DNA of 64,000 bases, taken from assembly GCA_964428895.1 (NCBI GenBank), contig CAYRZU010000002.1, forward strand, positions 14,595 to 78,594. The letters are read 5' to 3'. Shown here one piece after another: positions 511 through 29,563 of this stretch; within the stretch, counting starts at the first letter, position 1, and each line of letters begins with the position of its first letter. The notes under the pieces are model-generated. The model had not been told where the DNA came from. It did not search any database and saw only the letters and a list, made by a program, of their open reading frames with translations. The stretch is from an uncultured Planctomycetaceae bacterium. Its GTDB lineage: Bacteria > Planctomycetota > Phycisphaerae > SM23-33. The position numbers and the translations under genes were made by a program.

Positions 511-562
511 TATGAAACGGGAGGGTTGCTAGTACTCGCAACGGTAACCGTCCCGTTTTGCC
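511..562 (+). terminator. Hairpin plus T-run downstream of the URO-D-like gene (putative intrinsic terminator, possibly bidirectional)
   Basis: AAACGGGA (515-522) pairs with TCCCGTTT (551-558). Inner stem GTTGC (525-529) pairs with GCAAC (538-542). TTTTG follows at 556-560. Confidence 0.4.
540..555. repeat. Direct repeat copy 1, AACGGTAACCGTCCCG (the 3' arm of the terminator hairpin)
   Basis: Perfect 16-bp match to 1705-1720. It sits inside a more degenerate ~45-bp duplication (511-555 versus 1672-1720). Confidence 0.8.
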
Positions 563-570
563 CATAAGGC

Positions 571-1635
571 TCATGACGGAGTTGGGGAGTCAGCCTCGAG
601 CGATTGAGACAGGAAGCGATCTCTGTTCATGAGCAGGAATGCCTTGAAGCACGTCTTTGCGATCTTCAGCATGTTCTGGAACTCGATTGAGCCAATCGTT
701 GAGGCATGAGCACGATCAAAGTCATTCTGATCCTCAATATACGGCTTTCTCGATCCCTCGTTCGGAAGCAGTCCCCCCTGATGAGCTAGAGTTGATCGCA
801 AGGTATAGATTTCATCCTTCTTCTTCTTGGGCACCTCAAAGCAATACTTATCGAGAAGGTCTCTGAACTTTCTGCGCACCGCGTACATGGGCTGCCCGCA
901 CGTGGTGCAGTTCTTGCCCTCTCCATCTAGGTGCTCAATGTGGACCAACGCCTCGATCGCCGTGATCATTAGCAGGAAGGATACACTGATCTCTGAGTCC
1001 ATCAGCCCTATCGCCTTCGACAGCACGTCACATGCATTCAGGTAGAGACCTTTCAGATCCGAATCTGGGGCAGTGAGGTAGATCTCAAAGAGCTGAGCCG
1101 TTGGAATGCCGGTTCTGTCCCCTGTCGATTGATCCATCATCTCTAGCGCCACAGGATCTATGAGGTCATAGCCCTCGGAGGGCAGTATTGGGCCTACCTC
1201 CGTCTCATACGCATGATTATACCCCTCCTGACCATATTCCGCCGAGCGACTCAAGTCAGTCAGGCTCGTGAACCACGATTGCCTAACGCCATAAGCCAGG
1301 AAGAACTCCGGAGAAATGGCGTTCAATAGTGCCAACACTTCTCGGGACCTTTCGTATGCAATCCAAAGATTTGCACTCCAATCAGGGACAGGCACAACAA
1401 CGTGTTCGTCGAAGTTTGGCTTCTCAGCCAAGTGATAGCTGAATTCCCTGACCGCCCGGACTCCAGATCGCTCCTCATATGAGATGTCGAGAAACATCGG
1501 GTGGTGGCCAATCTCTGCAGGAGGGAGGGGGAAGTCTAATGGGCAGTTCGCTATGCGGAAGTGCGGCGGGCACTCGAGAAGCACGTCGCGTTTTTCCCGG
1601 GTGAATACTATGTATCGCCTTGTCTTCATCGGCAT
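571..1635 (-). CDS. Hypothetical protein encoded in an AT-rich insert; possible HEPN-type (Abi-like) defence protein
   Basis: The ORF is 571-1737. The preferred start is the internal ATG at 1635 (MPMKTRRY...), preceded by GGAG. The region is visibly AT-richer than its flanks. The C-terminal part has TLRSTLAHQGG (R-x4-H) after the hydrophobic helix FLLMITAIEALVHIEH. No family was recognised. Confidence 0.5.
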   Translation of the reverse strand: MPMKTRRYIVFTREKRDVLLECPPHFRIANCPLDFPLPPAEIGHHPMFLDISYEERSGVRAVREFSYHLAEKPNFDEHVVVPVPDWSANLWIAYERSREVLALLNAISPEFFLAYGVRQSWFTSLTDLSRSAEYGQEGYNHAYETEVGPILPSEGYDLIDPVALEMMDQSTGDRTGIPTAQLFEIYLTAPDSDLKGLYLNACDVLSKAIGLMDSEISVSFLLMITAIEALVHIEHLDGEGKNCTTCGQPMYAVRRKFRDLLDKYCFEVPKKKKDEIYTLRSTLAHQGGLLPNEGSRKPYIEDQNDFDRAHASTIGSIEFQNMLKIAKTCFKAFLLMNRDRFLSQSLEADSPTPS

Positions 1636-1704
1636 GGTCTCCTGGCGGATAATTGCTAACCCGTAGGGAACAAAGCGGAACGGTTGCCTCTTGTGGCTTC
1701 CATG

Positions 1705-1720
1705 AACGGTAACCGTCCCG
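1705..1720. repeat. Direct repeat copy 2, AACGGTAACCGTCCCG
   Basis: Perfect 16-bp match to 540-555. It lies just upstream (promoter side) of the minus-strand AT-rich ORF. Confidence 0.8.
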
Positions 1721-1758
1721 ATTAGCCGCGGCCGCACGATCTGGCCACGGTGCAGTAG

Positions 1759-11418: not shown

Positions 11419-13812
11419 GTGCACATTATTGAAACCGACGCACCGATTCTCGAACCCGAAGACGGACTGATCCTGGGCAACGGCGATCTGTCGGTCAGTA
11501 TCTATCAGAAATCCGATTTGCTTATCTGGCGGTTCGGCAAGGTGGACGTGTGGGACCGCCGCCTGGACCTCGACGCCTGTCCCGCGCCCGCCCACATCGA
11601 CGAATTGGCCCGCGGCATCCGTGATGAAGGCTGGGTCAGCCACGAGTTCGTCTACGGCGAAGGCCAAGCCACGCGCGGCAAGCCAAAAGACGAAAAGCGG
11701 ATGAAGGAAATCTGCGACGGCTGGCCCGCTTACGCTCGTCGGCCCTATCCGTGCCCCAAGCCGGTCGGTGAACTGGCGATGCACCTGCCGGTCGACATGT
11801 TGGGCCAGCGGATCCATCAGCGGTTGACGATTGAGAAAGGCACAGCCGAGATCACGATCTCCTTCGATAACGGCGTGTCGATTGAGCTTGAGTGCTTCAT
11901 CGCGCCGTCGCCGAATGTGTTGGTGGTGCGATGGCAGGTGCATAACTGGAACGCCGATACCGCCATGGGCATCCACGGGCCGGTATGGTTTTCGCTCTAT
12001 CGCTGGGCCGACCCGCCGGTGGAGCAGTTGGCGGCCTCGCTTCACACCCGGGCCCGCTATCGCTACTTCTGGGGCTCGATCGAATCGGGCGAATGTACCA
12101 CGCTGCCCGGGCCCGAAATGCGAGAGCTGGACGGGCGACTCGTCATCGAGCAACGGTTCTATCCCGACCTGGAATTCACCGAGGGCTTTCGGACCATCCT
12201 GGCGCCTTACGTAACGAGCCTGGGTATTGAACGGGCCGATATCTACACGCAAGACGCCGTGCTCAATATCTTCGCCAACGAGGATGTGCTAAGTGGCGAG
12301 CTGGCCGTGGCTGTTTCGACCAGCACCGATGACGGCGGGGCCGAAGCGGAGTGTCAGCGGACCCGAGCGCTGCTCGAGCCGGGCCTGTCCGCGGCCACGG
12401 CCCAACTTGAAGACGCCACCGTCGCCTTGGCCGAAGAGTTCTGGGGCCAGTCGTCGGTGCAGATCGACGACCCTGTCCTGGAAGACGCCTGGTACGAGAT
12501 GCTGCACTTCCGCCGCTGCACGTGTCGGGGGGACGTGGTCGCGCCGGGGCTGGCCTTGCCCAGCACGGTTCGGGACTATTCCCTGTGGCACGGCGACTAC
12601 CACATGAACATCAACTACCAGATGGGGTTCTGGGGCGACTACGCGTCCAACCACGTCGACCTCGGCGACGCGTTCTTTCCCGGCATGGCCCACATGGTGG
12701 AGATCGGCCGCAAATTGGCGCGGGACTACTGGGGCTGTCGGGGCACCTTCATTCAGTTGGCGGGCTATCCGTTCCCGGTGGCGGGCGACCCTTACGGAAC
12801 GGGCGCGCTGTGCCGCATGACCTACATGACCGGCTGGGTGGCCGGCTACTACTGGTGGCGCTACCGCTACACCATGGACCGCGACTGGCTGGCCGAGACC
12901 GGCTACCCGGTCATTCGCGACTGCGCCCTGTTCTACGCCGACTTCCTGGAGAAGCGCGACGACGGCCTGTATCACGCCTGGCCCAGCATGCAGGGCGAAT
13001 CGATGTTCACCGGCAAGGTCGAAGACTACACCGATCAGCCGCAAGTGGTCCGCCACGCCCGTTACGGCTTGCAGTGCGCCGTCCGCGCGGCCGAGGCCCT
13101 GGACACGGACCCCGAGTATCGCGACCAGTGGCAGGACATCCTGGATAACCTCGTCACCACCGACGACCTCGACGCCCTCGGCTTCAGCGACGAGAAGAAG
13201 CGCCGCTACGCGCTGATCCAGCCGGCGTTTCTGGGCGCCGACATCGGCGACGGCCGAATTCCCGACAAACTCGACGAGCCGGACTATCTGGCCCCCAGCC
13301 GTAATGGCTGTGGGTTCTTGGCCTGGCCCACCATGATGCACATCCACAACGACGCCTTCGACCCCGAGCGCGACATCCCGACCTTTGCCGAGAACCTGCG
13401 GCGCTGGCGCCGCCCGGGCGGAATGATCCGCGCCTGGAACATGGCCGGGCACAGCTACATCGGCGCCTACGTGGAGAGCCTGGGGATGTTGGCGCCGCTG
13501 CAGGCGTTCCTGCTGCAAAGCTGGGACGAAGTGATTCGCATCTTCCCCCTCTGGAAGGCCGACATCGACGCGGCCTACACCAACCTGCGCGCCGAAGGCG
13601 CGTTCTTGGTCAGCGCATCCTGGAAAGGTGGCGCCCTCCAGTCGGCCACGATTCACGGCGAGCGGGGCGGGCCGTGTCGCCTCGAATGGCCATGGGACAG
13701 CGCGCCGGCCATTACGTGCGACGGCCAATCCGTGGATGTCACCGGCGAGGACCACGGGGTGGTCGCCTTCGACACCGAGGCCGGTCAGACCTACGACCTC
13801 AAGAAGGGGTGA
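11419..13812 (+). CDS. Putative glycoside hydrolase, GH95-like / six-hairpin superfamily
   Basis: 797 aa with a GTG start 5 nt after AGGAGG. N-terminal LILGNGDLSVSIY...W.RRLDL resembles the GH95 N-terminus (GNG.LG...W). Family call is tentative. Confidence 0.45.
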   Translation: MHIIETDAPILEPEDGLILGNGDLSVSIYQKSDLLIWRFGKVDVWDRRLDLDACPAPAHIDELARGIRDEGWVSHEFVYGEGQATRGKPKDEKRMKEICDGWPAYARRPYPCPKPVGELAMHLPVDMLGQRIHQRLTIEKGTAEITISFDNGVSIELECFIAPSPNVLVVRWQVHNWNADTAMGIHGPVWFSLYRWADPPVEQLAASLHTRARYRYFWGSIESGECTTLPGPEMRELDGRLVIEQRFYPDLEFTEGFRTILAPYVTSLGIERADIYTQDAVLNIFANEDVLSGELAVAVSTSTDDGGAEAECQRTRALLEPGLSAATAQLEDATVALAEEFWGQSSVQIDDPVLEDAWYEMLHFRRCTCRGDVVAPGLALPSTVRDYSLWHGDYHMNINYQMGFWGDYASNHVDLGDAFFPGMAHMVEIGRKLARDYWGCRGTFIQLAGYPFPVAGDPYGTGALCRMTYMTGWVAGYYWWRYRYTMDRDWLAETGYPVIRDCALFYADFLEKRDDGLYHAWPSMQGESMFTGKVEDYTDQPQVVRHARYGLQCAVRAAEALDTDPEYRDQWQDILDNLVTTDDLDALGFSDEKKRRYALIQPAFLGADIGDGRIPDKLDEPDYLAPSRNGCGFLAWPTMMHIHNDAFDPERDIPTFAENLRRWRRPGGMIRAWNMAGHSYIGAYVESLGMLAPLQAFLLQSWDEVIRIFPLWKADIDAAYTNLRAEGAFLVSASWKGGALQSATIHGERGGPCRLEWPWDSAPAITCDGQSVDVTGEDHGVVAFDTEAGQTYDLKKG

Positions 13813-13852
13813 TATCCGTAGCGTGCGTAGCAGACCTACGCGTCCTACGAGC

Positions 13853-14167
13853 TCATTCGTAAACAACGAACCCGGGGCCACGCCACTTCACCGTCCTGGG
13901 GTAACCCAATGACGTGGCTCCTTGGATTCCACTCGTCGGGAGATACCTGCCCCCCGAATCGGGTCTCTCTGGTACGCCAAAGCCGCCCTGTGCGGCGCCC
14001 ACGAAGGTCGCGATCGCGCCGGCTATCCCGAGAATGATGCATACAGCGGAGCCTACGTACCAGAGAGCAGTGTCCTTTCCGGGCAAGGTGGGCGGATTGA
14101 CGACCGCGCCGATAATGCCGGCGATCATCATCGCAAAATACCAGATTCCAGCCAGCAGTCTCCGCAT
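13853..14167 (-). CDS. Small two-TM membrane protein (hypothetical)
   Basis: ATG at 14167 with a GGGAGC RBS. Hydrophobic segments IWYFAMMIAGIIGAVV and VGSAVCIILGIAGAIATFVGAA. Confidence 0.4.
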   Translation of the reverse strand: MRRLLAGIWYFAMMIAGIIGAVVNPPTLPGKDTALWYVGSAVCIILGIAGAIATFVGAAQGGFGVPERPDSGGRYLPTSGIQGATSLGYPRTVKWRGPGFVVYE

Positions 14168-14369
14168 GCTGTGCTCCCGGAACCGGATGTGTGTTGCGAC
14201 GGCGACCAAGGTGGCCTCGCACGCAACTCACAAGTCAATATAGACCGCCGGGGCGCAAAATGCCACGGGGAGTGCTGTCCTTCCCGAAACCGGTCTCAGC
14301 CGAGGACCCCAGGCGGGACGGACCTACCAGCTCGTGAAATCCTGACGGCCCGGACCGGGCCTAGCCGCC

Positions 14370-14398
14370 TTGGCGGGAGGGGGTTTCCGTGCTAGAAT
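14370..14398 (+). promoter_or_regulatory. Sigma70-type promoter: -35 TTGGCG, 17-nt spacer, extended -10 TGCTAGAAT
   Basis: TTGGCG at 14370-14375, TG at 14390-14391, TAGAAT at 14393-14398, ATG at 14458. A G7 run lies in the 5'UTR at 14425-14431. Confidence 0.45.
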
Positions 14399-14457
14399 CA
14401 CGGTCTGGACGGAGTTCTGATCGTGGGGGGGCATTTCGAACACAAGGAGTGACTGTC

Positions 14458-16686
14458 ATGAGGCGAATCGTTTTCGCGATGGTGGCGCTATCTTTGGCGT
14501 CAGCGGCGTCGGCCGGTGTGGCGGCGGCGGATGACTATGACCTGACGTGGCTGGGCCTGGGCGGCGCGGACTTTATTAAGGACGACGGCACGGTCTACGC
14601 CGAGAGCTTCCAGATCGCCGACAACGATCTGGTCCTCGGCCGCAACCGCATCTTCTACGGCACGGCCAACAACTACGGCGACGCGTGGTGGGTCTCGGAC
14701 GGCACGACCACCACTCGAGTCGGTCTGTTCGACACCGACCACACCCGCAGCACCGACAATCAACAGAAGACCTACGTACTGGGCTTCTATGGTGGCGGGC
14801 AGTTCGCGGCCGGCGAGTCGGAGAAGTACCGTCCCGACGGCAGCAAGATTTCCAACACGCCCTGGGTGTATGACGGTACGCAGACCATCGCGTTGGGTCT
14901 GACCGGCGCCGTCTATACGGACGCCGGCGGGTACCTCTACCCCAGCCGCTGGGAAGGCGCCGCCAACGGCAACTTCCTGGGGATGAACACCATCTACAAC
15001 GGCGGATCCACCAACATGGGCACCGCCACGTGGGTCTACAACTACGCCACCGACACCCACACCAGCGTGGGATTGACCGGAGCGCAGTACATTCGCGATG
15101 ACGGCTACGTCAAGACCCGCGCCGGGCGCCTCTCTCCCGACGGCAACTACGCCTTCGGGCGGACCTATCTGTACAGCGGCTCAACGGAGAACGGCACGCA
15201 CGGCTGGCGGTATGACGTCAGCACCGACACCACGGTGCAAATCGGCCTGACCGGGGCGGGGTTCGTTCGCGACGACGGCTACATGGAAGTCGAGATCCGC
15301 CGCGGCAACGCGTCCGGTCAGCTCAACGGGCTATCCCGCCGCTACAGCGGCTCGACCGACATGGGCCGCGTGGCCTGGATCTTCGACGGGACCAGCACAA
15401 CCCAGATCAGCCCCACCGGCGCCGAGTTCAGCCGGGCCGATGGCTACCGATACGAAGACGCCTGGTACATCAACGCGTCCGGCCAGGTCGCCGGCGAAGC
15501 CACCACCTACGACGGCGCCGCCACCGGCGGCAAGCGGGCGTGGTTCTACAACGGCACGACCACGCAGGTCCTGGACGGCCTGCAGGGGGGGTACTTCGAG
15601 AAGTCCAACGGGCACAACCAAGCCCTGCCCAACGGCCTCAACGCGGCCGCTCAGATCACCGGCACGAGCTATCGCTACAACGCCTCGGACACCTACATCG
15701 GCCTGCAGGGCTGGTTCTACGACAGCGCCACCGATACCACCGTCGCCTTGGGCCTGACCGATCCCGCCTACACGCGGGTGTCCGACGACAAGCAGTATCA
15801 CTATCCCCACGAACTGAGCGCAACGGGACTCGTGCGCGGCAGCAGCGACCGGTACGACGGCCTGTTCAGCAAGGGCCGTTGGGTCTACGACTGGGACACC
15901 GACATGACCTACGAGTTGGCGTTCTCGACCCGCTCGGACGGTTACTATGACACCCCCAAGTTCGAGTTCACCAACGACGGCGACGGTCTGGTCGGCTACT
16001 ACGAGCTCTTCGATGCCTTTGACGTTTCGCAAGGCTATAGCTTGTTCTACTGGACCATCGACCGGGCCACCGATACCCCCACCTTCGTGGACCTGGAAGA
16101 CCGAACCGCCCTGGCGGCCATGGAAGACCTCTTCGCCCTCTACTACAAAGGCTGCGGCATGAACGCCGGCGCCTTATTCGCCGGCACGGGCACCATGGCC
16201 GACGGGTCGCAGGGCGCGTATCTGCTGACGCCGGTTGAGACGAGCGTCCCGGGCGACTTCGACGGCGACGGCGACGTTGACGCCGACGACGTCGACATCC
16301 TCTGCGCCAACATGGGCGGCGACCTGAATCCCTACGACGTCAACAGCGACGGCGTGGTGGATGAAGACGACATGATCTACCACATCGAGACGTTGGTCGA
16401 GTACGACACCAACGGCGACGGCACGGCCGACGGCAACGGAACGTATCGGGGCGACTTCAACCTCGACGGCGTGGTCAACGCCACCGACCTGCAGATCATG
16501 AAGGGCGGCTTCGGCGCGGTCGGTGGCTATGCCGACGGCAACGCCAACTGCGACACCGTGGTCAACGCCACCGACCTGCAGATTCTCAAGAGCACGTTCG
16601 GCCAGACCGCCTCGGCCGTGCCCGAACCGTTGACGGTCGGCCTGCTGGGCCTGGGCGGCCTGACGCTCTTGAGACGACGGAAGTAG
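14458..16686 (+). CDS. PEP-CTERM-anchored surface protein with about 10 degenerate ~50-aa tandem repeats and C-terminal dockerin-type Ca-binding repeats
   Basis: RBS AAGGAG. Signal peptide MRRIVFAMVALSLASAASAGVAAA. Repeats T..VGLTG..Y.RDDGY. C-terminal DFDGDGDVDADD...DFNLDGVVNATDLQIMKG...NCDTVVNATDLQILK (dockerin type I-like), then VPEPLTVGLLGLGGLTLLRRRK (PEP-CTERM). Confidence 0.8.
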   Translation: MRRIVFAMVALSLASAASAGVAAADDYDLTWLGLGGADFIKDDGTVYAESFQIADNDLVLGRNRIFYGTANNYGDAWWVSDGTTTTRVGLFDTDHTRSTDNQQKTYVLGFYGGGQFAAGESEKYRPDGSKISNTPWVYDGTQTIALGLTGAVYTDAGGYLYPSRWEGAANGNFLGMNTIYNGGSTNMGTATWVYNYATDTHTSVGLTGAQYIRDDGYVKTRAGRLSPDGNYAFGRTYLYSGSTENGTHGWRYDVSTDTTVQIGLTGAGFVRDDGYMEVEIRRGNASGQLNGLSRRYSGSTDMGRVAWIFDGTSTTQISPTGAEFSRADGYRYEDAWYINASGQVAGEATTYDGAATGGKRAWFYNGTTTQVLDGLQGGYFEKSNGHNQALPNGLNAAAQITGTSYRYNASDTYIGLQGWFYDSATDTTVALGLTDPAYTRVSDDKQYHYPHELSATGLVRGSSDRYDGLFSKGRWVYDWDTDMTYELAFSTRSDGYYDTPKFEFTNDGDGLVGYYELFDAFDVSQGYSLFYWTIDRATDTPTFVDLEDRTALAAMEDLFALYYKGCGMNAGALFAGTGTMADGSQGAYLLTPVETSVPGDFDGDGDVDADDVDILCANMGGDLNPYDVNSDGVVDEDDMIYHIETLVEYDTNGDGTADGNGTYRGDFNLDGVVNATDLQIMKGGFGAVGGYADGNANCDTVVNATDLQILKSTFGQTASAVPEPLTVGLLGLGGLTLLRRRK
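16254..16686 (+). repeat. Shared dockerin-like/PEP-CTERM C-terminal module, copy 1 (coding repeat family)
   Basis: Nucleotide- and protein-level similarity to 21516-21959, 22811-23249 and 24940-25272. Confidence 0.7.
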
Positions 16687-28303: not shown

Positions 28304-29563
28304 CTACCGGCGTTGCCGCCTTCTCAACAACGCTCCCGCACCCAGCGCCAGGAACGCCGCGGAGGCGGGCTCGGGGACCTCGCCGACAAAGGCGTCCCAC
28401 TGACCTGCGTTGGGGCCGGCGAGGTCGCCTTCCGTATAGCCCGTGAAGAAAACGCCGTCCGAACCGTCGGCCGAGACGCCAAACCCCCTGTCGTCATCGC
28501 TGGTTCCCGACTGATACGTCCACACGACATTGCCGTTGGCATCGTACTTGCGCACAAAGACGTCATCGCCGCCGGCGTTGGCCGGTCCCAGGCTGCCCTC
28601 GGTCGTCCCCGACACGTAGACCCCTCCGGCGCCGTCGGCTGCGACGCCGTAGCTCCGTTCGTCGCCGCTGGTGCCGAATTGCCGCGTCCACACCGCATTG
28701 CCGTCGGCATCGTACTTCCGCACGTAGGCGTCCATCCCGCCGGCATTGGGCCTTTCCAGGTCGCCGCCGGTCCAACCGGACACATAGACGTTCCCCATGC
28801 CGTCGGCCGAGACGCCATAGCCCGCGGCCGACCCGTATGACCTGTACCAGACCTCATTGCCGTTGGCATCGTACCTGGCGACCCATGCTTGGCTGATACC
28901 TACGTGGTTGCCGCCTGCGTATCCGGACGCGTAGACGCCCCCTTGCCCGTCCGGGGCGATGCCGCCGTAGCTGGTCTCGCCGACCGGCATCGCCGTCCAA
29001 ACCAGGTTGCCGCCGGCGTCGTACTTGCTAAGGAAAGCCTCGTCGGTGGTCGCATTCCAACCGGACGTATAGACGTTACCCAAGCCGTCGGCCGTGACCC
29101 CGCTACCCCAATAGGACGCCGTCCCCGCTTGCGTGGTCCAGACGTGATTGCCGCCGGCGTCGTACTTGCTCACGAATGCGCCGCCGCTCCCGGTGGCGCC
29201 CGGCAGGGCGCCGCCTGCCTTGCCGGCGAGGTAGACGTTGCCGGAACCATCGGCGTAGACGCCGCCCCCGCCGCCGGTATCGTACCCGGCCGAACCGAAC
29301 TGACGGGTCCATATGAGTTGGCCGCTGGTGCTGTATTTGCTGATGAAGGCGTCCTTGTCTCCGGCGTTGGGCCCGGCCAGGCTGCCTTCAGTCCAGCCGG
29401 TGGTGTAGACGCTGCCCGCCCCGTCGGACGAAACGGCGTAGCTCCAGTCGTTGCTGCTCGTGCCGAATTGCTGCATCCACGCGACACCTTGAGCCCCGGC
29501 CGACCCGGCGCAAACCAGCACCATCACGGTAATTACGAAAACGCTCCAGAGGATACGGCACAT
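28304..29563 (-). CDS. PEP-CTERM-anchored beta-propeller (SBBP-type repeat) protein
   Basis: RBS GGAGAG. Repeated Y(D/A)..GN.VWT.Q.G units. C-terminal VPEPASAAFLALGAGALLRRRQRR. Confidence 0.75.
   Translation of the reverse strand: MCRILWSVFVITVMVLVCAGSAGAQGVAWMQQFGTSSNDWSYAVSSDGAGSVYTTGWTEGSLAGPNAGDKDAFISKYSTSGQLIWTRQFGSAGYDTGGGGGVYADGSGNVYLAGKAGGALPGATGSGGAFVSKYDAGGNHVWTTQAGTASYWGSGVTADGLGNVYTSGWNATTDEAFLSKYDAGGNLVWTAMPVGETSYGGIAPDGQGGVYASGYAGGNHVGISQAWVARYDANGNEVWYRSYGSAAGYGVSADGMGNVYVSGWTGGDLERPNAGGMDAYVRKYDADGNAVWTRQFGTSGDERSYGVAADGAGGVYVSGTTEGSLGPANAGGDDVFVRKYDANGNVVWTYQSGTSDDDRGFGVSADGSDGVFFTGYTEGDLAGPNAGQWDAFVGEVPEPASAAFLALGAGALLRRRQRR

What the first reader, a model, noticed from the sequence alone, without database searches (positions are those of the whole stretch)
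511..1720. AT-rich single-gene insertion bracketed by a duplicated terminator-like sequence; candidate HEPN/Abi-type defence gene
The ~1.1-kb stretch 571-1700 is visibly AT-richer than the rest of the window, roughly half G+C versus about two-thirds. It holds a single minus-strand ORF (354 aa from the ATG at 1635) with no family I recognise. It is bracketed by a perfect 16-bp direct repeat AACGGTAACCGTCCCG (540-555 and 1705-1720). That repeat sits inside a longer, more diverged ~45-bp duplication (511-555 versus 1672-1720; both have GGTTGC...AACGGTAACCGTCCCG). The left copy is the 3' arm of the terminator hairpin of the upstream gene. This looks like a foreign gene inserted into a terminator with duplication of the target, or recombination at a repeated core. 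The C-terminal part of the protein has a hydrophobic helix (FLLMITAIEALVHIEH), a CxxC, and then TLRSTLAHQGG. That is an R-x4-H arrangement, the HEPN RNase signature. The protein length is similar to Abi_2 (AbiD/AbiF-type) proteins. A lone, compositionally foreign, HEPN-like gene is a typical abortive-infection or defence cargo.
Basis: partly seen in the sequence, partly recalled or inferred. Interest (0 to 1): 0.7.

Follow-up and report, generated by a model that had tools for sequence, protein, structure and literature searches.

The report
Foreign single-gene HEPN RNase defence candidate
A lone, compositionally foreign gene flanked by two copies of one hairpin encodes a member of an undescribed family of HEPN-type (RNA-cutting) proteins. 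Relatives of this family sit in phage-defence islands, prophages and plasmids, so it is a good but untested candidate for a one-protein anti-phage suicide switch.

Summary
The minus-strand ORF 571-1635 is 52.5% G+C against 64.5% (sd 2.1) for the window, the lowest stretch in 64 kb. It is bracketed by a perfect 16-nt repeat (23 nt at 91%). Each copy is the 3' arm of a complete, near-identical hairpin, and only these two copies occur in the window.

The protein matches nothing in Pfam, NCBIfam or PADLOC, only an insignificant E = 0.17 match in PHROGs, and no PDB sequence. A profile search finds a family of about 800 cluster representatives.

It is not Abi_2, DUF4145 or Dazbog; a few relatives weakly match DzbB over the Rx4H region.

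Relatives lie inside a type I R-M operon, beside Mrr, Abi_2 and ABC-ATPase genes, at prophage or satellite ends, and are usually AT-richer than their flanks. Here, candidate system PDC-M56 lies one gene away.

Insertion into a terminator is plausible but unproven: no empty site was found.

The parts
514..559 (.). Left copy of the duplicated hairpin. It lies 11 nt downstream of the URO-D-like gene's stop codon (+ strand) and 12 nt from the stop of the HEPN gene (- strand). On the + strand it is followed by TTTT, so it may act as a bidirectional terminator-like element.
   Evidence: Inverted repeat 515-527 / 546-558. RNA fold -28 kcal/mol, z = -2.7. Not flagged by the strict terminator scan.
540..562 (+). 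Left copy of the direct-repeat core. It is a 16-nt perfect match, or a 23-nt match at 91% identity.
571..1635 (-). CDS of the HEPN-family protein, 354 aa from the ATG at 1635. The likelier start is the ATG at 1629 (352 aa). The stop codon is at 571-573.
   Evidence: ORF list. Identical public gene call P0001 of 352 aa. Full-length homologues. Start-codon region read.
1102..1635 (-). N-terminal beta-rich alpha/beta domain (aa 1-178) with a long helix at aa 85-107. W121 (codon 1273-1275) is invariant. It has no convincing structural relative in the PDB. Inferred to be the sensor or regulatory domain.
601..1101 (-). C-terminal HEPN domain (aa 179-345). Helix 1 is aa 192-210, helix 2 is aa 216-234, helix 3 is aa 270-286 and helix 4 is aa 303-336.
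952..954 (-). Codon of E228, the invariant acidic residue in HEPN helix 2 (motif AIEAL).
829..933 (-). Insert between HEPN helices 2 and 3 (aa 235-269). It carries the invariant CxxC (C243 at 907-909, C246 at 898-900; motif CxxCGQPxYxVxxKF). This is a zinc knuckle, expanded to a four-Cys ribbon in some relatives.
781..798 (-). Codons of the R280-S-T-L-A-H285 motif (Rx4H) at the C-terminal end of HEPN helix 3. This is the predicted catalytic motif.
   Evidence: Invariant in 70 sequences. Position in the model. Coordinates.
1676..1720 (.). Right copy of the duplicated hairpin. It lies between the stop of the 416-aa lipoprotein gene (stop codon at 1759-1761, - strand) and the start of the HEPN gene. 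On the - strand it is followed by CTTTGTT.
   Evidence: Fold. Alignment with the left copy. Pattern match.
1705..1727 (+). Right copy of the direct-repeat core. DNA homology with the related species' contig (L013) ends at about 1728, at the outer edge of this copy.

Best explanation
The 1.1-kb stretch is a horizontally acquired single gene. It encodes a two-domain protein of an undescribed family within the HEPN superfamily.

Shown computationally:
- The C-terminal half has the HEPN four-helix fold. It carries an invariant acidic residue in helix 2 (E228), a Zn-knuckle insert between helices 2 and 3 (C243/C246), and an invariant Rx4H (R280/H285) at the end of helix 3.
- The N-terminal half is a conserved beta-rich domain with no clear relative.
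- Family members recur in defence islands, inside an R-M operon, on a plasmid and at prophage or satellite ends. They are usually AT-richer than their surroundings.

Inferred mechanism, by analogy with the experimentally tested single-gene HEPN defences RAZR/PD-T7-4 and HEC-08:
- The protein is kept inactive in uninfected cells.
- The N-terminal domain senses a phage-derived trigger.
- This brings two HEPN domains into an active dimer or oligomer with a composite R/H site.
- The active site cleaves cellular and phage RNA without metal.
- Translation stops and the infected cell is sacrificed (abortive infection).

The gene sits between two copies of one hairpin. The likeliest account is that it entered at, or with, a terminator hairpin between the convergent URO-D-like and lipoprotein genes, by recombination in the shared 16-23-nt core. 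Both neighbours then keep a terminator-like hairpin. This last step is inference only.
For: Composition:
- 52.5% against 64.5% G+C, the lowest in the window; GC3 is 63% against 73-89%.

Family:
- 823 representatives at E <= 1e-3, 330 at <= 1e-10 and 32 at <= 1e-30.
- Invariant residues are W121, E228, C243, C246, R280 and H285.

Structure:
- Model pLDDT 94.2, pTM 0.90.
- The positions of the acidic residue, the insert and Rx4H agree with the canonical HEPN description (PMC3710099).

Genomic contexts:
- The window species has PDC-M56A/B (E 2.6e-142 and 1.6e-34) one gene away, also at low G+C.
- P0144 lies between HsdR and HsdS, next to PDC-S11.
- P0020 lies beside AAA_21+RloB and Mrr.
- Pantoea soli plasmid protein WP_145891751.1 is a family member (hhalign 99.9%, E 1e-33). 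It lies between an Mrr-like REase and Abi_2 plus AAA_13 genes, with VapBC and an integrase nearby.
- P0185 lies between a CapH-like HTH and a serine recombinase, at the end of a phage-like element.
- L018 has an HK97 capsid gene 2.5 kb upstream.
- P0171 lies beside IS transposases and Uma2.

Recurrent foreign composition:
- The family gene is 9-28 G+C points below its flanks in 9 of 13 loci.

Precedents:
- RAZR (PMC13017515) and HEC-08 (10.1101/2024.01.29.577857) are single-gene HEPN defences that were tested experimentally.
Against: - There is no experimental evidence for RNase activity, toxicity or phage defence for any member.
- There is no sequence-level match to any described HEPN, Abi or defence family.
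- Two contexts (L006, L017) show no recognisable defence or mobile neighbours.
- No relatives were found in phage genomes, viral contigs or predicted viral structures.
- No empty site was found, so the insertion is inferred only from composition and the repeat.
- No promoter-like site was found upstream of the gene.
- No other locus shows bracketing repeats.
Confidence: 0.6

Rival explanations
1. The protein is a selfish toxin or addiction-type HEPN RNase. It would be a toxin whose neutralising partner is the N-terminal domain or an unlinked or unrecognised antitoxin, and it would stabilise mobile DNA rather than defend against phage.
For: HEPN toxins of HEPN-MNT pairs are among the best structural matches. 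Relatives sit on a plasmid next to VapBC, in prophage-like elements and beside transposases.
Against: No conserved small partner gene was seen across the contexts examined. The protein is about 340 aa with a conserved extra domain, unlike the roughly 130-aa HEPN toxins. Embedding in an R-M operon and the Mrr, Abi_2 and ABC-ATPase neighbours are typical of defence genes.
Confidence: 0.15
2. The two hairpins are members of a dispersed REP-like or terminator family of this genome. The gene happens to lie between two of them, so the repeat says nothing about how the gene arrived.
For: Both copies are complete hairpins at gene ends, where terminators belong. A 15/16 match to the core exists elsewhere on the contig. 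No bracketing repeats occur at other family loci. No empty site was found.
Against: Only these two copies occur in 64 kb plus about 10 kb of flank. The extra 15/16 match is a coding repeat, not a hairpin. The copies bracket the compositionally foreign segment closely. The low-G+C stretch runs from about 560 to 1700.
Confidence: 0.3
3. The protein is a non-catalytic HEPN domain protein with a housekeeping or regulatory role, such as nucleotide or RNA binding, and has nothing to do with conflict systems.
For: Several HEPN families are non-catalytic (PMC3710099). The neighbours in L006 and L017 are ordinary.
Against: R, H and the helix-2 acidic residue are invariant across 70 diverse members. The family is rare and patchy, from Planctomycete-like MAGs to Gracilibacteria, Bacteroidota, Dehalococcoidia and Pantoea. 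It is compositionally foreign in most loci.
Confidence: 0.07
4. The gene is a third component of the adjacent PDC-M56 ABC-ATPase system rather than an autonomous unit.
For: PDC-M56A/B lies one gene away. Another family member lies two genes from an AAA_21+RloB pair, and the Pantoea member lies near an AAA_13 ATPase.
Against: The native-composition URO-D-like gene separates the two, and they are on opposite strands. Most family members have no such ATPase nearby. PDC-M56 is defined as a two-gene candidate in PADLOC.
Confidence: 0.05

Closest known systems
HEPN superfamily (Rx4-6H RNases; Anantharaman et al. 2013, PMC3710099)
   Same: It has the four-helix up-down fold. Rx4H lies at the end of helix 3, a conserved acidic residue lies in helix 2, and an insert sits between helices 2 and 3. 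It occurs in defence contexts, including inside an R-M operon.
   Different: It has no detectable sequence match to any Pfam HEPN family. The residue after R is Ser rather than the usual N/H/D. A Zn knuckle is built into the helix 2/3 insert. The N-terminal domain of about 180 aa is previously undescribed.
RAZR / PD-T7-4 (zinc-ribbon + DUF4145 HEPN; PMC13017515)
   Same: It is a single-gene unit with a sensor domain followed by a C-terminal divergent HEPN that carries catalytic R and H. Zinc-binding Cys pairs are present. This is the proposed working model: trigger-driven oligomerisation, then nonspecific RNA cleavage and abortive infection.
   Different: RAZR's HEPN is DUF4145, which is not matched here. 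RAZR's sensor is an N-terminal Cys4 ribbon, whereas here the Cys pair sits inside the HEPN domain and the N-terminal domain is a large beta-rich fold. RAZR's R and H (R146, H154) are spaced more widely. The window protein is about 130 aa longer (my recollection of RAZR's size, not taken from the passages read).
DzbB of the Dazbog system (DzbA DUF262 + DzbB; Millman et al. 2022)
   Same: 7 of 70 family members match the PADLOC DzbB profile weakly, with a best E of 3e-4. In P0047 the match covers aa 268-323 against profile positions 269-317 of 341. That is the same region (the Rx4H helix) in a protein of the same length. Dazbog acts by abortive infection.
   Different: The window protein itself does not match DzbB at E <= 10. 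No DUF262 (DzbA) partner is present here or in any context examined. The similarity is local and near threshold. No paper in the library calls DzbB a HEPN protein.
Abi_2 (AbiD/AbiD1/AbiF, PF07751)
   Same: It is a solitary protein of about 340 aa with a HEPN-type Rx4H and an abortive-infection-like context. In Pantoea soli a family member sits next to an Abi_2-like gene.
   Different: There is no Abi_2 profile match for the window protein or any of 70 relatives. The domain order and N-terminal fold differ.
HEC-08 (DUF3644 HEPN + zinc-finger-like domains; Payne et al. 2024 preprint)
   Same: It is a single-gene HEPN defence found by embedding within another defence system, and mutating its Rx4-6H histidine abolished defence. 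One family member here is likewise embedded in a type I R-M operon.
   Different: The HEPN family differs (DUF3644). The domain order is the opposite, with HEPN N-terminal and zinc fingers C-terminal.

Membership tests
HEPN superfamily | Four-helix up-down bundle of about 100-120 core residues, structurally similar to solved HEPN domains | tested here: met
HEPN superfamily | Conserved Rx4-6H motif at the end of helix 3 or in the helix 3-4 junction | tested here: met
   R280-x4-H285 is invariant in 70 sequences. It lies at the C-terminal end of helix 270-286. The criterion comes from PMC3710099.
HEPN superfamily | Conserved acidic residue in helix 2 and a variable insert between helices 2 and 3 (frequent but not universal features) | tested here: met
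   E228 is invariant in helix 216-234. The insert at 235-269 carries CxxC.
HEPN superfamily | Metal-independent RNase activity that depends on R and H, with dimerisation forming a composite site | not testable with these tools
   This needs biochemistry. No multimer prediction or coordinate access was available.
Abi_2 (AbiD/AbiF, PF07751) | Match to the Abi_2 profile | tested here: not met
   The window protein has no Pfam hit at E <= 10. None of 70 relatives hits Abi_2 at E <= 0.01.
DUF4145 / RAZR (PD-T7-4) | Match to DUF4145 (PF13643) or the PADLOC PD-T7-4 model, with an N-terminal Cys4 zinc ribbon | tested here: not met
   There are no Pfam or PADLOC hits. The window protein's N-terminal domain has no Cys4 ribbon. 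Only some longer relatives carry N-terminal zinc ribbons (DZR).
Dazbog (DzbA + DzbB) | DzbB profile match | tested here: inconclusive
   The window protein shows none at E <= 10. Weak local matches occur in 7 of 70 relatives, with a best E of 3e-4.
Dazbog (DzbA + DzbB) | Adjacent DUF262 (DzbA) gene | tested here: not met
   The neighbours here are a URO-D-like gene and a lipoprotein gene. No DUF262 gene was seen in the annotated contexts.
Integron gene cassette / attC | attC hairpin with R''/R' boxes (RYYYAAC ... GTTRRRY), and an integron integrase or further cassettes nearby | tested here: not met
   By inspection of the sequence, neither hairpin on either strand contains the R-box consensus. 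There are only two copies. No integrase appears among the called genes within 10 kb on either side of the gene.
Transposon/IS insertion with target-site duplication | Transposase gene or terminal inverted repeats inside the direct repeats, and a short target-site duplication | tested here: not met
   The segment between the repeats holds only the HEPN ORF. No terminal inverted repeats were found apart from the hairpins themselves. The duplication is an imperfect hairpin of about 50 nt, not a short exact target-site duplication.

The most novel reading that the evidence does not exclude
The unit 'one HEPN gene plus one hairpin' (1165 bp, repeat to repeat) may be a promoter-less mobile cassette. 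It would move by recombination between folded hairpins at gene ends, using a recombinase supplied in trans. This would be analogous to integron attC cassettes but with an unrelated site that doubles as a terminator.

In parallel, the protein would found a new family of one-protein phage sensors. Its undescribed N-terminal domain would recognise a phage trigger and switch on a Zn-knuckle-bearing HEPN RNase. The family would also reveal that Dazbog's uncharacterised DzbB is a HEPN effector.
Probability: 0.1. Interest if true: 0.75.

Novelty: new variant of a known kind. Interest (0 to 1): 0.45.

Why it matters
Single-protein HEPN RNases are a recurring design in bacterial immunity (AbiD/F, RAZR, HEC-08, Csm6, Cas13). 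What distinguishes them is how each one senses infection.

This family has about 800 cluster representatives across very different phyla. It is absent from Pfam, NCBIfam and PADLOC and has no significant PHROGs match. It combines a canonical catalytic core with an unknown N-terminal domain, and it has a confident predicted structure.

A cultured strain, Pantoea soli DSM 32899, carries a member (WP_145891751.1) in a textbook defence island. The family is therefore directly testable.

If validated, it would add a defence family and a new sensor domain. It might also explain the effector of the Dazbog system. The duplicated hairpin would be of wider interest only if it proves to be a recombination site.

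Tried and rejected
Sequence-family searches with the window protein:
- Pfam, PADLOC, NCBIfam and PDB sequences gave nothing.
- PHROGs gave only an HNH hit at E = 0.17 over the CxxC. I rejected it because the family has no conserved HNH histidines or asparagine.
- The 70-sequence profile against PDB sequences gave only chance hits.

Search for an empty site:
- A genome-contig scan and a metagenome-contig scan with the 416-aa neighbour found nothing.
- A degenerate DNA pattern for the URO-D C-terminus found nothing in metagenome contigs.
- Homologues of the neighbour at 63-68% identity lie in non-syntenic contexts.
- All same-species contigs are identical and carry the gene.

Tests of the hairpin as a known element:
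- No Rfam family matches the hairpins.
- No bracketing repeats occur at seven other family loci.

Searches in mobile and viral collections:
- Close-subfamily searches of phages, plasmids and viral contigs were empty.
- BFVD fold search gave no hit at E <= 0.001.
- The afdb50 fold library was not available.

Other attempts:
- A second word-indexed protein search with the profile added almost nothing.
- The PDC-M56 island has no flanking repeats.
Full report
**1. The observation**

The region reads as the first-stage reader described.

- Composition. A sliding G+C profile drops from 0.62-0.65 to 0.50-0.55 between about 500 and 1500.
  - The ORF itself is 52.5% G+C. The window mean is 64.5%, with sd 2.1% for windows of the same length.
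  - It is the lowest-G+C stretch of the whole 64 kb.
  - Its third-position G+C is 63%, against 73-89% in the four neighbouring genes.
- ORF. The only long ORF is on the minus strand. It spans 571-1635 (354 aa from ATG) or 571-1737 (388 aa from GTG).
- Start codon. The homologue alignment and the position of GGAG at 1639-1642 favour the second ATG at 1629. That gives 352 aa, which is also the public gene call P0001.
- Repeat. The 16-mer AACGGTAACCGTCCCG occurs at 540-555 and 1705-1720.
  - It occurs nowhere else in the window at up to 2 mismatches. The chance expectation is 0.10 matches, and none of 100 shuffles reached two.
  - The match extends to 23 nt at 91% identity.
- Left hairpin. The left copy is the 3' arm of a hairpin (arms 515-527 and 546-558; -28 kcal/mol; z = -2.7). 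TTTT follows it.
- Right hairpin. The right copy is also the 3' arm of a complete hairpin, about 1676-1720, with the same stem sequence and a different loop. What is duplicated is therefore a whole hairpin of about 50 nt, 1165 nt apart.
- No other copy of the hairpin exists in the window.
- Caveat on uniqueness. One 15/16 match to the core lies about 9 kb to the left of the window. It is inside a repeated coding motif (GTVTV) of a 1332-aa protein and is not a hairpin.
- Caveat on the terminator label. The strict terminator scan flags neither hairpin. 'Terminator-like' is a fair label; 'terminator' is not shown.

**2. The protein**

The protein has no significant match in the curated libraries. 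Pfam, PADLOC and NCBIfam give no hit at E <= 10, PHROGs gives only an HNH match at E = 0.17, and there is no hit among PDB sequences.

It is nonetheless a real, conserved gene.

- The word-indexed search found six homologues at 34-41% identity over 93-94% of the length.
- A profile search of 1.84 billion cluster representatives found 823 proteins at E <= 1e-3, 330 at <= 1e-10 and 32 at <= 1e-30. Most are 320-430 aa.
- In an alignment of 70 diverse members, six positions are invariant: W121, E228, C243, C246, R280 and H285. S281, Y277, F257 and F260 are nearly invariant.
- The family signature is [SA][AS][IL]E[AST]L ... CxxCGQPxYxVxxKFxxF ... YxxRSxIxHxGxL.
- None of the 70 members hits any Pfam HEPN, Abi or DUF4145 family at E <= 0.01. 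A few longer members carry N-terminal zinc ribbons.

**3. Structure**

- With seven sequences AlphaFold gave pLDDT 65. With the 70-sequence alignment it gave pLDDT 94.2 and pTM 0.90.
- Residues 1-178 form a beta-rich alpha/beta domain with one long helix.
- Residues 179-345 are helical:
  - helix 192-210
  - helix 216-234, which contains E228
  - an insert at 235-269 with the CxxC and a short helix
  - helix 270-286, with R280...H285 at its C-terminal end
  - helix 303-336
- This matches the canonical HEPN arrangement described by Anantharaman et al. (PMC3710099). There, Rx4-6H lies at the end of helix 3, a conserved acidic residue lies in helix 2, and inserts lie between helices 2 and 3.
- No predicted viral structure resembles the protein.
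- I could not access coordinates, so the three-dimensional proximity of E228, R280 and H285 is inferred from topology. It was not measured.

**4. Relation to known defence proteins**

- DzbB. Seven of 70 relatives weakly match the PADLOC DzbB (Dazbog) profile, with a best E of 3e-4.
  - In P0047 the match is aa 268-323 against profile positions 269-317 of 341. That is the Rx4H helix region in a profile of the same overall length as this family.
  - The window protein itself does not match.
  - No DzbA (DUF262) partner is nearby, here or in any context examined.
  - This is a lead to distant homology, not membership.
  - Dazbog is reported as an abortive-infection system whose DzbA senses methylated DNA. 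No domain is described for DzbB in the papers I could read.
- RAZR/PD-T7-4. This is the best functional analogue with experimental support. It is a zinc ribbon plus a divergent HEPN (DUF4145) that assembles on phage ring proteins and cleaves RNA nonspecifically (PMC13017515).
- HEC-08. This single-gene HEPN defence loses activity when the Rx4-6H histidine is mutated.

**5. Genomic contexts**

In the window species the gene lies between the URO-D-like gene (+ strand) and a 416-aa lipoprotein gene (- strand).

- All contigs of this species from several metagenomes are 100% identical here, apart from one single-base mismatch in each of two contigs. All carry the gene.
- Just left of the window, beyond the URO-D-like gene, lies a gene pair. 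It matches the PADLOC candidate system PDC-M56 over its full length (A: E 2.6e-142; B: E 1.6e-34).
- That stretch is also low in G+C, at 52-58%.
- PDC systems are untested candidates, predicted from embedding in known systems.

Contexts of relatives elsewhere:

| Relative / locus | Context |
|---|---|
| P0144 (L022) | Between HsdR (REase_I, E 7e-223) and an HsdS fragment of a type I R-M operon, followed by PDC-S11 |
| P0020 (L026, Gracilibacteria) | Beside AAA_21+RloB and an Mrr-type endonuclease |
| P0185 (L027) | Last cargo gene of a phage-like element (primase, TerL-like, prohead protease), between a CapH/C-protein-like HTH and a large serine recombinase |
| L018 | HK97 capsid gene 2.5 kb upstream |
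| P0171 (L025) | Beside IS200 and DDE transposases and Uma2 |
| WP_145891751.1 (L030) | On a mobilizable 276-kb plasmid of Pantoea soli DSM 32899 (NZ_CP032704.1), between an Mrr-like endonuclease and an Abi_2-like gene plus an AAA_13 ATPase, with VapBC and an integrase nearby |
| L006, L017 | Nothing recognisably defensive |

- WP_145891751.1 is a full-length family member (hhalign probability 99.9%, E 1e-33).
- In 9 of 13 loci the family gene is 9-28 G+C points below its flanks. Foreign composition is a recurrent property of this family.

**6. How the gene got here**

- No empty site could be found.
- The only cross-species DNA homology is with L013, at 79% identity over the 3' part of the lipoprotein gene. 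It ends at window position about 1728, the outer edge of the right repeat copy. Synteny is not conserved beyond that point, so this is weak evidence.
- The hairpins lack integron attC R-boxes, by inspection of the sequence.
- No Rfam family matches them.
- No transposase or integrase lies between or near them.
- Other family loci have no bracketing repeats.
- The most economical reading is recombination within the shared 16-23-nt core, between a terminator hairpin at the convergent junction and a like hairpin carried with the gene. Each neighbour then keeps a hairpin.
- I cannot exclude that both hairpins belong to a sparse dispersed family of this genome.

**7. Verdict**

- The HEPN reading is supported by invariant motifs, a confident model and fold comparison.
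- The Abi_2 and DUF4145 assignments fail their membership tests.
- Defence function is supported only by association and analogy.
- The insertion mechanism is unresolved.
- The finding is a new, testable family-level variant of a well-known kind of defence effector. That makes it of moderate interest.

Noticed in passing
Left of the window: L009 9909-11584 (= L002 about 12550-14500), one gene beyond window position 1: A two-gene pair matches the PADLOC candidate defence system PDC-M56 over its full length: a 393-aa ABC-type ATPase (PDC-M56A, E 2.6e-142) and a 164-aa protein (PDC-M56B, E 1.6e-34). The stretch is also low in G+C (52-58% against about 63%). The native URO-D-like gene is therefore flanked on both sides by foreign, defence-type DNA. 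In L001-L003 the 164-aa gene was not called.
   Followed up: partly
L002 19853-19868 and 20453-20468 (about 9 kb left of the window): A 15/16 match and a 13/16 match to the repeat core lie 600 nt apart inside a 1332-aa gene. Read in frame, they encode a repeated ...GTVTV... peptide motif, typical of long beta-strand repeat surface proteins. The core 16-mer of the hairpin, read on the minus strand, would also encode GTVTV.
   Followed up: partly
L030 (Pantoea soli DSM 32899 plasmid NZ_CP032704.1, 56.5-67.2 kb): A compact defence island on a mobilizable megaplasmid. In order it holds an integrase, VapBC, an Mrr-like endonuclease, a 317-aa hypothetical protein, the HEPN-family member WP_145891751.1, an Abi_2-like protein, an AAA_13 ATPase and a recombinase. 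The 317-aa hypothetical protein immediately upstream has no Pfam match and was not examined further.
   Followed up: partly
L027 871-12168 (NCBI GCA_001458795.1, contig CXWL01002514.1): A small phage-like or satellite-like integrated element. It holds a DUF3854/AAA_25 primase-helicase, a TerL-like gene, an S78 prohead protease and a large serine recombinase. It carries a 433-aa family member with an N-terminal zinc ribbon as its last cargo gene, 43 nt downstream of a CapH/C-protein-like HTH gene.
   Followed up: no
PADLOC hits of relatives: Several relatives weakly match the uncharacterised DzbB of Dazbog over the Rx4H region, and one matches PDC-M46A (E 3e-4). This hints that those proteins are also HEPN-type effectors. 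I found no paper in the library that says so for DzbB.
   Followed up: partly
window 28464-28821: A 168-nt tandem repeat of 2.1 copies at 73% identity (TRF score 385). It was not examined.
   Followed up: no
window 1-64000 and flanks (L001-L003): The surrounding genome is rich in polysaccharide-degradation genes: a GH2 beta-mannosidase, a cellulase-like gene, GH95, an alpha-L-fucosidase, sulfatases and a PFL-like glycyl-radical enzyme. The window has no tRNA genes and no Rfam matches. This suggests a marine glycan-degrading bacterium, possibly of the PVC group (an inference only). The organism could not be named.
   Followed up: no
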